The notes under the pieces were generated by a model. The model was not told the origin of the DNA and searched no databases. It saw nothing but the letters and a program-made list of their open reading frames with translations. Of a DNA stretch of 64,000 bases, positions 50,772-56,304 are shown piece by piece. The first letter of the stretch is position 1. Every line of letters starts with the position of its first letter. The stretch lies in the NCBI RefSeq assembly GCF_057098645.1, contig NZ_CM169472.1; one strand, written 5' to 3'. Position numbers and translations under genes: made by a program.

Positions 50772-52289
50772 TTAAGGTAGCGTCTTATACATCGGGACAT
50801 AACCTACATCTTCCACCAAACTCTGCCCCTGCGGCGTTAAAAACCATTCCACCAATTTTTGTGTCTCTGACGTCGTATTTTCCCTCGTTACCATAAAGGC
50901 ATCGACGATATAGGGATATTTGCCGTTGCGAATATTTTCCGCAGTCGGTGCAATACCGTTAATCGCTAGCAGTTTTATATTTTTATCGGCGTTCATTTGT
51001 GTTGCGTAATAACGGAAGGTGTAACCTATTGCGTTGTTTGTATTACGATATTCGGCAACGACTTTAATCATTCCCTCCATTACGCTTGCCACTTCGGTTT
51101 CCTGCGGCGAGATCATGCGGACATTTTTCATGACCTGTGATTGCATCACTGTCTGGCTGCCAGAGTCTTCCGGGCGCTGCCAGGTCTGGATCTCCTGATC
51201 GTTACCGCCAACAGTACGCCAATTGGTAATTGCACCACTGAAAATGTCACGCACCTGTTGTTCAGTCAGGGAATTAACCGGATTATCCGCATTGACGATG
51301 AAAACGAATGCTTCACGGGCAAAGGGGGTGTACAGCAAAGTGACACCAGATTCCTTTGCACGTTTTTTTTGCCCACCGGAAGGTTGCGCCACGAAAATAA
51401 TATCAGCATCGCCCTTAACGATTTTGTTATATGCTTCTGGCGTACGAGAGTTTTCCAGATAATCCCAAACGTGAAAATCCTCTGGTATTACACTTAATGC
51501 ATAAAATGCAGAAGCATAAATTGGGTACGCAGCCGTGGCGCCATCGATTCGCGGCCAGTTTTGCCTAAACTGAATTTGCGGTTTGCCACGCAGCGGCGTC
51601 AGTCGATTATTGAGTTTATCGGGTTGCCAGGCCCAGATATCAATATTTTCGCGTACACCGACACCAGGATTGAGCTGTTTATATAAATAACCCTGATAAC
51701 CAGCGACAAAACCAAGCATGAGAAGGATAAACAGGAGGGAATTACGGCAACGTAGCCCGGATGTACCGGTTAAAGGATGTCTGGTTGGCCGGCCGTACCC
51801 CAGCGAAAAACTGATATGCGCGCCAACGGGTATAATGACTATCCACCAGTACTCACCTCCGACTACTGAGACTAACAAAACGCCCAGCCAGGGGAGCATA
51901 AGATCAGCCAACCAACCCGATCCCATCTGGTGAAATTGATAATCTGCCAGATGCAGCGCGATTATCCAGCCAACCAGGATTAATAAAGCGGGTACTAAAA
52001 AAAGACATTGTCGCCAGACGGCTATTTCTCTTTTTTCTGGTGCACTATCGCCTGCCCATACTCGCCCCGAGAAAAATAGCATTAATGCGCCCAGCGCCAG
52101 CATAAAAATGTTGAGCAGAAGGTAAATTGTTGGCGTGATAAGGATATTACAAACTTCAATAATACCGGCAAGTCCGACACCCAGCATAGCAACAACCGCC
52201 GCCAAAAATTGCGTCAGTATGGGGATGCCGAAAAAAGTCATTACCAGCGAGGACAAAATCCATTTTCTGTTTTGCATTATTCTTTCCAT
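50772..52289 (-). CDS. Membrane-anchored PstS-like (PBP type 2) substrate-binding domain protein (gene 1 of accessory operon)
   Basis: 505 aa ORF: N-terminal ~240 aa with ~6 hydrophobic helices, C-terminal ~260 aa resembling phosphate-binding-protein folds (AAYPIYASAF..., LTEQQVRDIFSGAITNWRTVGG..., EDSGSQ, AIGYTFRYYA, INGIAPTAENIRNGKYPY...). Start may be the Met at 52277. Confidence 0.7.
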   Translation of the reverse strand: MERIMQNRKWILSSLVMTFFGIPILTQFLAAVVAMLGVGLAGIIEVCNILITPTIYLLLNIFMLALGALMLFFSGRVWAGDSAPEKREIAVWRQCLFLVPALLILVGWIIALHLADYQFHQMGSGWLADLMLPWLGVLLVSVVGGEYWWIVIIPVGAHISFSLGYGRPTRHPLTGTSGLRCRNSLLFILLMLGFVAGYQGYLYKQLNPGVGVRENIDIWAWQPDKLNNRLTPLRGKPQIQFRQNWPRIDGATAAYPIYASAFYALSVIPEDFHVWDYLENSRTPEAYNKIVKGDADIIFVAQPSGGQKKRAKESGVTLLYTPFAREAFVFIVNADNPVNSLTEQQVRDIFSGAITNWRTVGGNDQEIQTWQRPEDSGSQTVMQSQVMKNVRMISPQETEVASVMEGMIKVVAEYRNTNNAIGYTFRYYATQMNADKNIKLLAINGIAPTAENIRNGKYPYIVDAFMVTRENTTSETQKLVEWFLTPQGQSLVEDVGYVPMYKTLP

Positions 52290-52306
52290 TCTTTCTGAAT
52301 GGCGAA

Positions 52307-52312
52307 ATTATA
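52307..52312 (-). promoter_or_regulatory. Candidate -10 hexamer (TATAAT) for the accessory operon
   Basis: Perfect TATAAT on the minus strand about 18-30 bp upstream of the two candidate start codons of gene 1; no good -35 seen. Confidence 0.35.
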
Positions 52313-52361
52313 CTCCCCGAGTCCCCTTGCCCCTTCTGGACACTTTTCCGAAATGATGGCG

Positions 52362-52388
52362 AAAAAAACGGGACCCTTTGGCCCCGTT
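52362..52388 (-). terminator. Intrinsic terminator of glgP (glgCAP operon)
   Basis: Minus strand reads AACGGGGCCAAAGGGTCCCGTTTTTTT: a 7-bp stem (one G-U pair) then seven T, immediately after the glgP stop. Confidence 0.7.
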
Positions 52389-52404
52389 CTATTTATTGGT
52401 GAAA

Positions 52405-54870
<2,466 letters not shown>

Positions 54871-56304
54871 CTATTTCAAGCGATAGTAAAGCTCACGGTA
54901 CGACTTCGCCGCGACCTGCCAGCTAAAATCCATTGCCATAGCCTGACGTTGCACAAACCGCCACAGTGAAGGACGGGACCACAGTACAAAAGCACGTCGA
55001 ATAGCCCGTAACAGCGACCAGGCATTACTATCTTCAAAGACAAACCCACTGGCGACGCCATCTGCAAGGTTCTCAAGAGAACAGTCAGAAACCGTATCAG
55101 CAAGCCCACCGGTGCGCCGCACTAACGGCAGCGTACCGTACTTCAATCCATAAAGTTGCGTTAAGCCGCACGGTTCAAAACGGCTGGGCACCAGAATGAC
55201 GTCCGCGCCGCCCATAATGCGATGCGAAAATGCTTCGTGATAGCCAATCTGAACGCCCACCTGGCCGGGGTATTCCGCTGCCGCCGCAAGGAAACCTTCC
55301 TGCAGCACCGGATCGCCCGCGCCGAGTAGCGCCAGCTGCCCGCCCTGCTCCAGAAGGCCCGGTAAGGCTTCCAGCACCAGGTCGAGACCTTTCTGGCTGG
55401 TCAGACGGCTCACCACTGCAAAAAGCGGCACTTTATCGTCAACCTTAAGCCCCATTGCGATTTGTAACTGGCGCTTATTTTCCGCTTTATCTTCCAACGT
55501 ATCGCGGGTGTAACGCGAGGCCAACAGTAAGTCCGTCTCTGGACTCCAGATTTTCTCGTCCACGCCGTTCAGTACGCCGGAAAGACGCCCTTCACGGTGA
55601 CGCTGTTGCAACAGACCTTCCATACCGTAGGCAAACTGCGGTTCGGTGATCTCGCGAGCGTAGGTTGGACTGACCGCCGTAATGTGATCGGCATAGTACA
55701 GACCGGCCTTCAGGAAAGAGATTTGTCCGTTGAATTCCAGCCCATGAATATTAAAGAATGACCATGGCAATTGGATGTCATTCATGTGATGTGCATAAAA
55801 CATGCCTTGATAGGCCAGGTTGTGCACAGTAAACACCGACTTCGCCGGACGCCCGCGCGCCGCCAGATATGCAGGCGCAAGGCCTGCATGCCAGTCGTGC
55901 GCATGCACCACATCAGGACGCCAGAATGGGTCAAGCCCGCTGGCCATTTCTGCCCCAACCCACCCCAGCAGCGCAAAACGCAATACGTTGTCGGTATAGG
56001 CAAATAAGTTGGTATCGTGATACGGGCTTCCCGGACGATCATAGAGATGCGGCGCGTCAATCAGGTATATGCCAACCCCGTTGTAATGACCGAACAACAG
56101 CGTGATATGTCCGGCGAAGGTATCACGACGGGATACTACCTGCGCATCGGTCACGCCACGGCGAATATCGGGAAATGCAGGCAACAGTACGCGAGCGTCA
56201 ACGCCGTCTGCGATTTGTGCTGCGGGTAATGCCCCAATAACATCAGCCAGACCGCCGGTTTTAAGCAGCGGGAACATCTCTGAACATACATGTAAAACCT
56301 GCAT
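54871..56304 (-). CDS. glgA: Glycogen synthase
   Basis: 477 aa [33 protein letters not shown]... (KTGGL motif). Confidence 0.96.

What the first reader, a model, noticed from the sequence alone, without database searches (positions are those of the whole stretch)
50772..52289. Unusual architecture: polytopic membrane domain fused to a PstS-like periplasmic binding domain
The C-terminal ~260 residues carry hallmark phosphate-binding-protein motifs, but instead of a signal peptide or lipobox there is a ~240-aa N-terminal region with about six predicted TM helices. No ABC permease or ATPase genes accompany it. A membrane-integral binding protein without a cognate transporter suggests sensing or substrate presentation rather than classical ABC import.
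Basis: inference. Interest (0 to 1): 0.6.

Follow-up and report, generated by a model that had tools for sequence, protein, structure and literature searches.

The report
Membrane-embedded PstS-like phosphate-binding protein family
The gene encodes a phosphate-binding-type domain permanently joined to its own previously undescribed membrane domain; this is a widespread but unstudied bacterial protein family that databases label as an ABC-transporter part, although nothing around it supports that role.

Summary

It is not a one-off fusion. The window is E. coli O145:H28, and 3347 of 5426 complete E. coli genomes carry the gene. K-12 yzgL is its deletion remnant. The same binding-domain subfamily, always behind three or six membrane helices, occurs across many phyla.

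The membrane domain has no Pfam, PDB or AlphaFold-database relative outside this family. Seven of eight PstS phosphate ligands are kept; the discriminating Asp56 is Ala. All members score below NCBI's PstS cut-off.

There is no Pho box, and no gene neighbour is conserved across taxa. The exceptions are a stand-alone copy of the membrane domain (Ybl142, the last gene of the operon here) and, in Paenibacillus, an overlapping orphan histidine kinase.

The best reading is a self-contained, membrane-integrated oxyanion receptor rather than an ABC importer component. Ligand, output and topology are unproven. E. coli alleles are old and mosaic but under purifying selection.

The parts
50772..52289 (-). 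Gene for the membrane-fused PstS-like protein ('A505'; 505 aa from the first ATG; the RefSeq start at 52280 gives 502 aa)
   Evidence: ORF; RefSeq annotation; Pfam and NCBIfam matches; dN/dS 0.10-0.22 between E. coli alleles.
51672..52289 (-). Membrane domain, aa 1-206: six predicted helices. Conserved residues are P23, G75, R93, W108, P133 and Q199. Helix 5 carries the motif PxGxxxxFxLG.
51555..51671 (-). Linker, aa 207-245, with the conserved acidic motif (E/D)xxDxxxYxPF...LTPL...WPR
   Evidence: Alignments. The motif is shared by the six-helix and three-helix forms.
50772..51554 (-). PstS-type binding domain, aa 246-505 (includes the stop codon). Anion-site residues: T252, A253, T283, R372, S376, G377, S378. 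A301 stands at the PstS Asp56 position.
50046..50756 (-). Second gene of the operon ('B236'): predicted cytoplasmic protein of unknown function, starting 15 bp after A505
   Evidence: ORF. No Pfam or PADLOC match. Only 29 clusters, all Enterobacteriaceae. A 55%-identical orthologue occupies the same slot in K. oxytoca.
49276..50043 (-). Third gene ('C255'): predicted cytoplasmic protein of unknown function, starting 2 bp after B236
   Evidence: ORF. No Pfam match even at E 10. 52 clusters, mostly Escherichia and Shigella.
48674..49273 (-). Fourth gene ('D199', named Ybl142 in some records; RefSeq start): a stand-alone paralogue of the A505 membrane domain, starting 2 bp after the C255 stop codon
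   Evidence: hhalign against the membrane-domain profile: probability 96%, E 3.5e-9. Shared motif GPISAQLGFALGY versus PVGAHISFSLGY. Source names. Present at the end of the locus in all four E. coli variants compared.
52361..52390 (-). Terminator-like hairpin plus T-run just after the glgP stop codon, upstream of A505
   Evidence: Read directly from the sequence: aacggggcc-aaa-gggtcccgt followed by ttttttt. The consensus scan did not list it.
52307..52312 (-). Perfect TATAAT hexamer about 20 bp upstream of the first ATG: a possible own promoter (unverified)
   Evidence: Sequence. The region contains no Pho box, and the whole window has none with up to 3 mismatches.

Best explanation
A505 belongs to a widespread, uncharacterised family of membrane-integrated PstS-like receptors.

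Shown. A family-specific helical membrane domain is covalently joined, through a conserved acidic linker, to a PstS-type two-lobed ('Venus-flytrap') binding domain. The membrane domain has six helices in Proteobacteria, Clostridia and several other groups, and three in Bacillales. The family is not genetically tied to an ABC importer.

Inferred. The binding domain sits on the periplasmic (outer) face of the inner membrane. It keeps the PstS anion clamp (Thr-Ala at the first helix N-terminus, Thr283, Arg372, Ser-Gly-Ser 376-378), so it probably binds phosphate or a closely related tetrahedral oxyanion or phosphoryl group. Because the discriminating Asp56 is Ala, specificity may differ from that of PstS.

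Inferred, least certain. Closure of the binding domain on its ligand is read by the protein's own membrane domain, possibly paired with the stand-alone paralogue Ybl142 encoded at the end of the operon. That signal is passed on within the membrane to a partner, or the membrane domain gates something itself. The ligand is not handed to PstCAB.

In E. coli the gene heads an accessory, mosaic four-gene operon (A505, B236, C255, Ybl142) between glgP and glpD. That operon is lost in K-12.
For: Domain identity.

Anion-site residues. The R135, S139, G140 and T141 equivalents come from the hhalign to E. coli PstS. That alignment starts just after the S38 position, so the T10, F11 and S38 equivalents were read by eye from the motifs GATAAYP and SRTPEAY in the family alignment. 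These residues are near-invariant in 76 proteins from many phyla.

Not a classical PstS. The score is 124 bits against the 206.6 TIGR02136 cut-off, and other family members also fall below it. No ABC genes lie nearby. No Pho box is present. Among 80 loci no neighbour is conserved across taxa.

The membrane domain is a dedicated module.
- It occurs almost only with this binding-domain subfamily or alone.
- It has no Pfam, PDB or AFDB relative outside the family.
- It carries conserved motifs.
- It evolves under purifying selection (omega 0.19-0.37).

Coupling of the two modules. E. coli O157 carries a split version: a lipoprotein binding protein and Ybl142, encoded by genes that overlap by 1 nt. 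Stand-alone membrane paralogues lie next to family genes in E. coli, an Opitutaceae genome and Pasteurella.

Binding domain outside the cytoplasm. Paralogues about 60% identical carry lipoboxes. The loop charges of the three-helix Bacillales forms give N-terminus inside, C-terminus outside.

A sensing precedent within the family. In three Paenibacillus species a membrane-embedded orphan histidine kinase overlaps the start of the family gene.

The gene is functional: omega 0.10-0.22, and it is intact in 3347 of 5426 E. coli genomes.
Against: - No ligand, partner or phenotype is known. I found no literature on any member.
- Orphan binding proteins can serve transporters encoded elsewhere, and E. 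coli has pstSCAB.
- The kinase link is confined to one genus.
- The six-helix count conflicts with 'three positively charged loops inside, binding domain outside', so the topology is unresolved.
- The protein has no cytoplasmic output domain, so any signal must pass laterally to an unidentified partner.
- The E. coli context (variable cassettes, deep allelic divergence) fits a role in inter-strain or phage conflict at least as well as nutrient sensing.
Confidence: 0.45

Rival explanations
1. Tethered spare PstS. The protein is an extra phosphate-binding subunit, held at the inner membrane, that delivers Pi to the canonical PstCAB importer encoded elsewhere. The membrane domain is only an anchor.
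For: PstS fold and most phosphate ligands are kept. PGAP names it a PstS-family protein. Membrane-anchored binding proteins are common in Gram-positive bacteria (general knowledge), where the three-helix forms occur.
Against: - It scores below the curated PstS cut-off.
- Asp56 is missing family-wide.
- No Pho box is present.
- It is not adjacent to pstCAB in the 80 loci surveyed.
- A Gram-negative cell needs no tether.
- A six-helix domain with conserved motifs under purifying selection, plus a stand-alone paralogue, is far more than an anchor needs.
- The gene is dispensable: it is lost in K-12.
Confidence: 0.15
2. Self-contained transporter or channel. The membrane domain (probably as an oligomer, possibly with Ybl142) is itself a translocation pathway, fed or gated by the fused binding domain. 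This would be a binding-protein-dependent secondary carrier or channel for phosphate or a related anion.
For: - The family is genetically self-sufficient.
- The best-conserved membrane segment is a Pro/Gly-rich helix (PxGxxxxFxLG), which may not fully span the membrane, as re-entrant elements in carriers do.
- The three-helix minimal form and six-helix form, with a weak hint of internal duplication, recall the way small carriers are built from repeated helix units.
- A paired stand-alone membrane paralogue exists.
Against: - No structural similarity to any known transporter fold.
- Few conserved polar or charged residues within the helices.
- The internal-repeat signal is not significant (probability 28%).
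- Three helices is very small for a carrier.
Confidence: 0.15
3. Conflict-system component. In Enterobacteriaceae the family is part of variable cassettes involved in inter-strain or phage conflict, for example as an envelope immunity or decoy protein, or as a receptor under diversifying pressure. The phosphate-binding fold has been re-used to bind a phosphorylated envelope molecule or a toxin.
For: - The glgP-glpD slot is mosaic between strains.
- Synonymous divergence peaks at A505 (dS 0.26-0.46, against 0.015-0.04 in glgA).
- Lipoprotein paralogues in Salmonella are cassettes within an array of small ORFs that includes an Ntox34 fragment and a HEAT-repeat protein. These cassettes are absent from another strain.
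- B236 and C255 are narrow-range orphan proteins.
- DUF4279, faintly hit by B236 orthologues in precomputed Pfam data, is described as an immunity family (PMC9424270).
Against: - No toxin gene lies in the window.
- PADLOC finds nothing.
- My own Pfam scan of 11 B236 homologues found no DUF4279 even at E 0.1.
- A505 itself is under purifying, not positive, selection overall.
- Outside Enterobacteriaceae the family sits in ordinary, unrelated neighbourhoods.
- The anion site is strictly conserved.
Confidence: 0.15
4. Decaying remnant or mis-called fusion with no present function.
For: K-12 carries only a deletion remnant (yzgL). About 38% of complete E. coli genomes lack an intact copy. The locus contains truncated and chimeric genes in other taxa.
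Against: The reading frame is intact in 3347 genomes. Omega is 0.10-0.22, and 0.06-0.14 in the binding domain. The architecture is conserved across phyla. The AF2 model is confident.
Confidence: 0.03

Closest known systems
PstS, the periplasmic phosphate-binding protein of the PstSCAB importer (E. coli PstS; 'type 2' PstS such as PDB 4gd5, 4ecf, 1twy; P. aeruginosa 4omb)
   Different: - A polytopic membrane domain replaces the signal peptide.
- It scores well below the curated PstS cut-off (124 against 206.6 bits).
- Asp56 is Ala throughout the family.
- It has its own signature motifs (DGATAxYP, FAREAFVF, QRPxxSGSQT, GYxFRYYAT).
- No pstCAB linkage and no Pho box.
Substrate-binding domains fused to, or anchored beside, ABC importer membrane domains (e.g. 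GlnPQ, OpuA; named from general knowledge, not tested here)
   Same: A binding domain covalently attached to a membrane-embedded polypeptide, so that it acts in cis at the membrane surface.
   Different: Here the membrane part shows no similarity to ABC permease domains: no Pfam match and no structural match. No ATPase gene accompanies it. The binding domain is C-terminal to a very small (three- or six-helix) domain.
Binding proteins that act as co-sensors for membrane receptors (LuxP-LuxQ, TorT-TorS, and PstS-CtpL in P. aeruginosa; reviewed in PMC8050422)
   Same: A binding protein used for signalling rather than import. PstS itself is known to activate a chemoreceptor. In Paenibacillus the family gene is translationally coupled to a membrane-embedded orphan histidine kinase.
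   Different: Those co-sensors are soluble or lipid-anchored and dock onto a receptor's periplasmic domain. Here the binding domain carries its own conserved membrane domain, and in most genomes, including this window, no receptor gene is adjacent.

Membership tests
PstS family phosphate ABC transporter substrate-binding protein (Pfam PBP_like_2; NCBIfam TIGR02136) | PstS-type two-lobed binding fold / PBP_like_2 domain | tested here: met
PstS family phosphate ABC transporter substrate-binding protein (Pfam PBP_like_2; NCBIfam TIGR02136) | Whole-protein score above the curated family cut-off | tested here: not met
   124 bits against a cut-off of 206.6. The other family members tested score 119-142 bits.
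PstS family phosphate ABC transporter substrate-binding protein (Pfam PBP_like_2; NCBIfam TIGR02136) | Arg135 and Ser139-Gly140-Thr141 clamp, plus Thr10/Phe11 and Ser38 equivalents | tested here: met
   R372 and S376-G377-S378 come from the hhalign to E. coli PstS. T252-A253 and T283 were placed by motif inspection of the family alignment, because the hhalign does not reach them. All are near-invariant in 76 proteins. The SGSQ and QRP columns are biased by the search pattern used to collect those proteins.
PstS family phosphate ABC transporter substrate-binding protein (Pfam PBP_like_2; NCBIfam TIGR02136) | Asp56, the acceptor that recognises protonated phosphate (role known from E. coli PstS; general knowledge) | tested here: not met
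   hhalign places A301 at Asp56. In 76 family proteins the four commonest residues in this column, A (64), L, G and F, account for 74; rarer residues were not listed.
PstS family phosphate ABC transporter substrate-binding protein (Pfam PBP_like_2; NCBIfam TIGR02136) | Secreted or lipid-anchored: cleavable signal peptide or lipobox | tested here: not met
   The N-terminus is a roughly 205-aa six-helix membrane domain. Lipoboxes occur only in the short paralogues.
PstS family phosphate ABC transporter substrate-binding protein (Pfam PBP_like_2; NCBIfam TIGR02136) | Encoded with pstC, pstA and pstB (or another ABC permease and ATPase) | tested here: not met
   None within about 20 kb in the window. 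No conserved ABC neighbour in 80 loci. E. coli pstSCAB lies elsewhere in the genome.
PstS family phosphate ABC transporter substrate-binding protein (Pfam PBP_like_2; NCBIfam TIGR02136) | Binds inorganic phosphate with high affinity | not testable with these tools
   Needs ITC or a similar assay on the purified domain.
Binding-protein co-sensor of a two-component or chemotaxis receptor | Genetic or physical coupling to a sensor kinase or chemoreceptor | tested here: inconclusive
   Not met in the window or in most loci. Met in Paenibacillus L040, L062 and L078, where the kinase stop codon overlaps the family gene's start.
ABC importer with a fused substrate-binding domain | Membrane domain homologous to ABC permease domains, plus a partner ATPase | tested here: not met
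Polymorphic-toxin immunity or anti-phage defence cassette | Adjacent toxin or effector gene, or a match to a known immunity or defence family | tested here: not met
   PADLOC finds nothing for all four operon proteins. No DUF4279 in my scan of B236 homologues. The only support is indirect context for Salmonella paralogues.

The most novel reading that the evidence does not exclude
The family is a new class of single-polypeptide envelope receptor. A PstS-like clamp is wired directly to a previously undescribed three- or six-helix membrane module, with stand-alone paralogues such as Ybl142 as partners. The module either transmits the occupancy of a phosphate-like ligand across the membrane or gates its passage, independently of any ABC system. 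In E. coli the module has been drawn into a hypervariable locus kept polymorphic by balancing selection.
Probability: 0.3. Interest if true: 0.75.

Novelty: new variant of a known kind. Interest (0 to 1): 0.55.

Why it matters
Phosphate sensing in bacteria is usually explained through PstSCAB, PhoU and PhoR. A second, widespread PstS-like protein that is built into the membrane and genetically independent of any ABC system would be either an overlooked phosphate or oxyanion sensing or uptake route, or a re-use of the phosphate clamp for another envelope ligand.

The family is present in most E. coli and Salmonella genomes, including pathogens such as O157 and O145, and in many Firmicutes. It carries a misleading automatic name. 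It also explains the K-12 pseudogene yzgL.

Its membrane domain has no recognisable relative and is small enough for direct structural and genetic study. The deep allelic divergence at this locus in E. coli marks a recombination or selection hot spot between two core operons.

Tried and rejected
- PADLOC defence models found nothing for any of the four operon proteins.
- Pfam found nothing for B236, C255 or the membrane-domain alignment. The weak Tetraspanin, MatE and Ceramidase hits look like hydrophobic noise.
- Literature searches (yzgL, PBP_like_2, STM3527, membrane-anchored phosphate-binding, Sll0540) found no study of any member. STM3527 appears once, in a list of genes co-regulated with SPI-2, but I could not confirm that this locus tag is the family gene.
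- Neighbour clustering over 80 loci found no partner conserved across taxa. The largest cluster is generic ABC ATPases several kb away.
- The test for an internal three-helix duplication gave only 28% probability, so I make no such claim.
- The idea that B236 is a DUF4279-type immunity protein rested on faint precomputed hits. My own scan did not confirm it.
- A Pho box search found none.
- I could not derive a definite topology.

Full report
**Where the window comes from**

The 4-kb stretch around the finding is 100% identical to Escherichia coli O145:H28 chromosomes. The gene lies between glgP (52405-54852, minus strand) and glpD (46940-48460, plus strand). In RefSeq it is annotated as 'PstS family phosphate ABC transporter substrate-binding protein', followed by three 'hypothetical protein' genes.

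**The observation**

- The ORF at 50772..52289 (minus strand) is intact and encodes 505 aa. RefSeq starts it three codons later.
- Residues 247-485 match Pfam PBP_like_2 (E 8.9e-31) and NCBIfam TIGR02136 (E 6e-36).
- Solved PstS proteins match by sequence at E 7e-19 to 1e-12.
- An AlphaFold2 model built on 25 homologues is confident (pLDDT 85.7, pTM 0.72).
- The first ~205 residues are hydrophobic and fold as six long helices. There is no signal peptide or lipobox.
- No ABC permease or ATPase gene lies within about 20 kb.

**The binding site**

A profile alignment to E. coli PstS pairs PstS residues with A505 residues as follows:

| E. coli PstS | A505 |
|---|---|
| R135 | R372 |
| S139 | S376 |
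| G140 | G377 |
| T141 | S378 |
| D56 | A301 |

That alignment begins just after S38. I read the remaining equivalents by eye from the family motifs GATAAYP and SRTPEAY: T10/F11 correspond to T252/A253, and S38 to T283.

In 76 family proteins from many phyla these positions are near-invariant. The D56 position is Ala in 64 of them, and none of the four commonest residues there is acidic. Part of that invariance reflects the search patterns used to collect the proteins.

The roles of these residues in E. coli PstS are established knowledge that I recall; they were not tested here. The domain therefore very probably clamps a tetrahedral oxyanion or phosphoryl group, but it lacks the residue that gives PstS its preference for protonated phosphate.

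All members tested fall far below the curated PstS cut-off (119-142 bits against 206.6).

**The membrane domain**

- A profile of the first ~206 residues found only 165 representatives among 1.84 billion proteins. Almost all were 470-540-aa proteins with the same binding domain, or ~180-215-aa stand-alone proteins.
- The domain has no Pfam family.
- In AFDB50 it matches only members of its own family.
- Conserved features are P23, G75, R93, W108, P133, Q199, a GDF(T) loop after helix 3, and the helix-5 motif PxGxxxxFxLG.

**A family, not a one-off**

Full-length relatives occur in E. albertii, Klebsiella oxytoca, Salmonella, Budviciaceae, Leclercia and Brachymonas. A scan of one genome per species found at least 576 loci encoding this binding-domain subfamily.

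ORF reconstruction gave the following picture:
- About 480-540-aa proteins with five or six hydrophobic helices occur in Proteobacteria, Clostridia, Synergistaceae, Coriobacteriia, Planctomycetes and an Enterococcus. Thirty-two of the 80 loci match the membrane-domain profile.
- About 380-400-aa proteins with three helices occur in Bacillales (Lysinibacillus, Paenibacillus, Planococcus and others) and in a Pasteurella.

**Which side of the membrane**

Short paralogues about 60% identical in the binding domain carry lipoprotein signal sequences (LISGC, LMSGC, VTAGC, LLAGC). This indicates that the domain works outside the cytoplasm.

In the three-helix forms, one conserved K/R precedes helix 1, the loop between helices 1 and 2 is neutral, and the loop between helices 2 and 3 is K/R-rich. 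This pattern gives N-terminus inside and binding domain outside.

The six-helix form is not resolved. The N-terminus, loop 76-93 and loop 167-182 are all K/R-rich (2.3, 3.3 and 4.2 per sequence). Having all three inside with the binding domain outside needs an odd number of spans. Either helix 5 does not span the membrane, or the N-terminus lies outside. I could not decide this.

**Gene context**

In the window the four genes are packed tightly: 15 bp between A505 and B236, 2 bp between B236 and C255, and 2 bp between C255 and the RefSeq start of D199. They follow a terminator-like hairpin after glgP and a TATAAT hexamer. There is no Pho box.

The fourth gene (D199, named Ybl142 in some records) is a stand-alone homologue of the A505 membrane domain (hhalign probability 96%, E 3.5e-9).

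B236 and C255 have no family assignment and a narrow distribution.

The slot is mosaic between strains:

| Strain | Genes between glgP and glpD |
|---|---|
| O145 (window), 33-6 | A505, B, C, D |
| AVS0972 | A505, C, D |
| O157 | A505, lipoprotein binding protein, D (last two overlap by 1 nt: a split version of the fusion) |
| TA054 | 141-aa gene, A505, two further binding-protein genes, 120-aa gene (one assembly only), B-like gene, 142-aa gene |
| K-12 | yzgL only: 73 codons of A505 fused out of frame to the end of D |

K. oxytoca and Salmonella carry the gene in the same slot with other small genes. Elsewhere the neighbours are unrelated.

The one recurrent link is in Paenibacillus. There a membrane-embedded orphan histidine kinase overlaps the start of the family gene.

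**Population genetics**

- 3347 of 5426 complete E. coli genomes carry at least 80% of the gene, mostly at only 90-95% nucleotide identity.
- Between four alleles, dS is 0.26-0.46. The same strain pairs give 0.015-0.04 in glgA, 0.02-0.12 in glgP and 0.11-0.23 in glpD.
- Omega is 0.10-0.22 overall, 0.19-0.37 in the membrane domain and 0.06-0.14 in the binding domain.
- One pair has dS = 0 in the linker, a sign of mosaic recombination.

The gene is therefore functional. Its alleles are old or imported.

**Interpretation**

The evidence best fits a self-contained, membrane-integrated PstS-like receptor whose dedicated membrane domain, not an ABC permease, is the partner of the binding domain. I put this at about 0.45.

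Four alternatives remain:
- a tethered spare PstS that feeds PstCAB (0.15);
- a small binding-protein-gated carrier or channel (0.15);
- a role in strain or phage conflict in Enterobacteriaceae (0.15), suggested by the mosaic cassettes and by Salmonella arrays that contain an Ntox34 fragment;
- a decaying remnant (0.03).

These figures leave a small remainder for explanations not considered. None of the first four can be settled without experiments.

**Novelty**

The fold and the likely chemistry of the binding domain are known. The membrane module, the obligatory fusion and the independence from ABC systems are not described in any paper I could search. I rate it a new variant of a known kind, of moderate interest.

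Noticed in passing
window 44301-44303 (rtcR, 43209-44807, + strand): rtcR is interrupted by an in-frame stop codon (...LPGLRQR*EDIEPNL...). This splits it into ORFs of 364 and 157 aa, so the sigma-54 activator of the rtcBA RNA-repair operon is probably inactive in this strain.
   Followed up: partly
window 48733..52060, compared with L009 (E. coli K-12 3563724-3564005, yzgL): K-12 yzgL (93 aa) is a deletion remnant. It consists of the first 73 codons of the membrane-fused PstS-like gene joined out of frame to the 3' end of the Ybl142-like gene. About 3.3 kb is missing.
   Followed up: yes
window 46940-56304 (glpD to glgA), compared with L099, L100 and L101: Synonymous divergence between E. coli strains rises from 0.015-0.04 in glgA to 0.26-0.46 in the PstS-like gene, then falls to 0.11-0.23 in glpD. 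This marks a local hot spot of old alleles or recombination between two core operons.
   Followed up: partly
L099 6044-7638 (E. coli O157): O157 carries a lipoprotein version of the binding domain (330 aa, lipobox LLAGC). Its gene overlaps by 1 nt the gene for the stand-alone membrane domain, giving a split, reversed-order version of the fusion.
   Followed up: partly
L005 9564-10109 (Salmonella) compared with L002 9838-10958 (K. oxytoca): The Salmonella 181-aa protein that defines NCBIfam NF007301 (PRK09781, 'equivalog') is a chimera. Its first 45 residues come from the B236-like protein, and the rest is a lipoprotein (Pfam YbbD_head) that is a separate gene in K. oxytoca.
   Followed up: partly
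L011, L012, L018 (Salmonella, next to yegQ and an SseK/NleB-like gene), compared with L017: A long same-strand array of small ORFs separated by wide spacers contains two lipoprotein PstS-like cassettes, an Ntox34 toxin-domain fragment and a HEAT-repeat protein. The PstS-like cassettes are absent from another strain. It resembles an orphan toxin/immunity array.
   Followed up: no
L040 6637-9113; also L062 and L078 (Paenibacillus spp.): A membrane-embedded orphan histidine kinase with no adjacent response regulator ends in an overlap with the start codon of the three-helix PstS-like gene. htpG follows about 120 bp downstream.
   Followed up: partly
L007/L008 9625-11138 (Leclercia): In Leclercia the family gene is followed by a polyphosphate kinase 2 (PPK2) gene and a ccdB-type toxin-antitoxin pair. 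The PPK2 neighbour is the only phosphate-metabolism gene I saw next to a family member.
   Followed up: no
L014 3987-4412 and 9636-10064; L015 8446-8868: Small secreted proteins of about 140 aa, built from repeats of the form GNxxGxxxxxSxGxxTYRDxxGN, occupy the same glgP-glpD slot in some Escherichia and related genomes.
   Followed up: no
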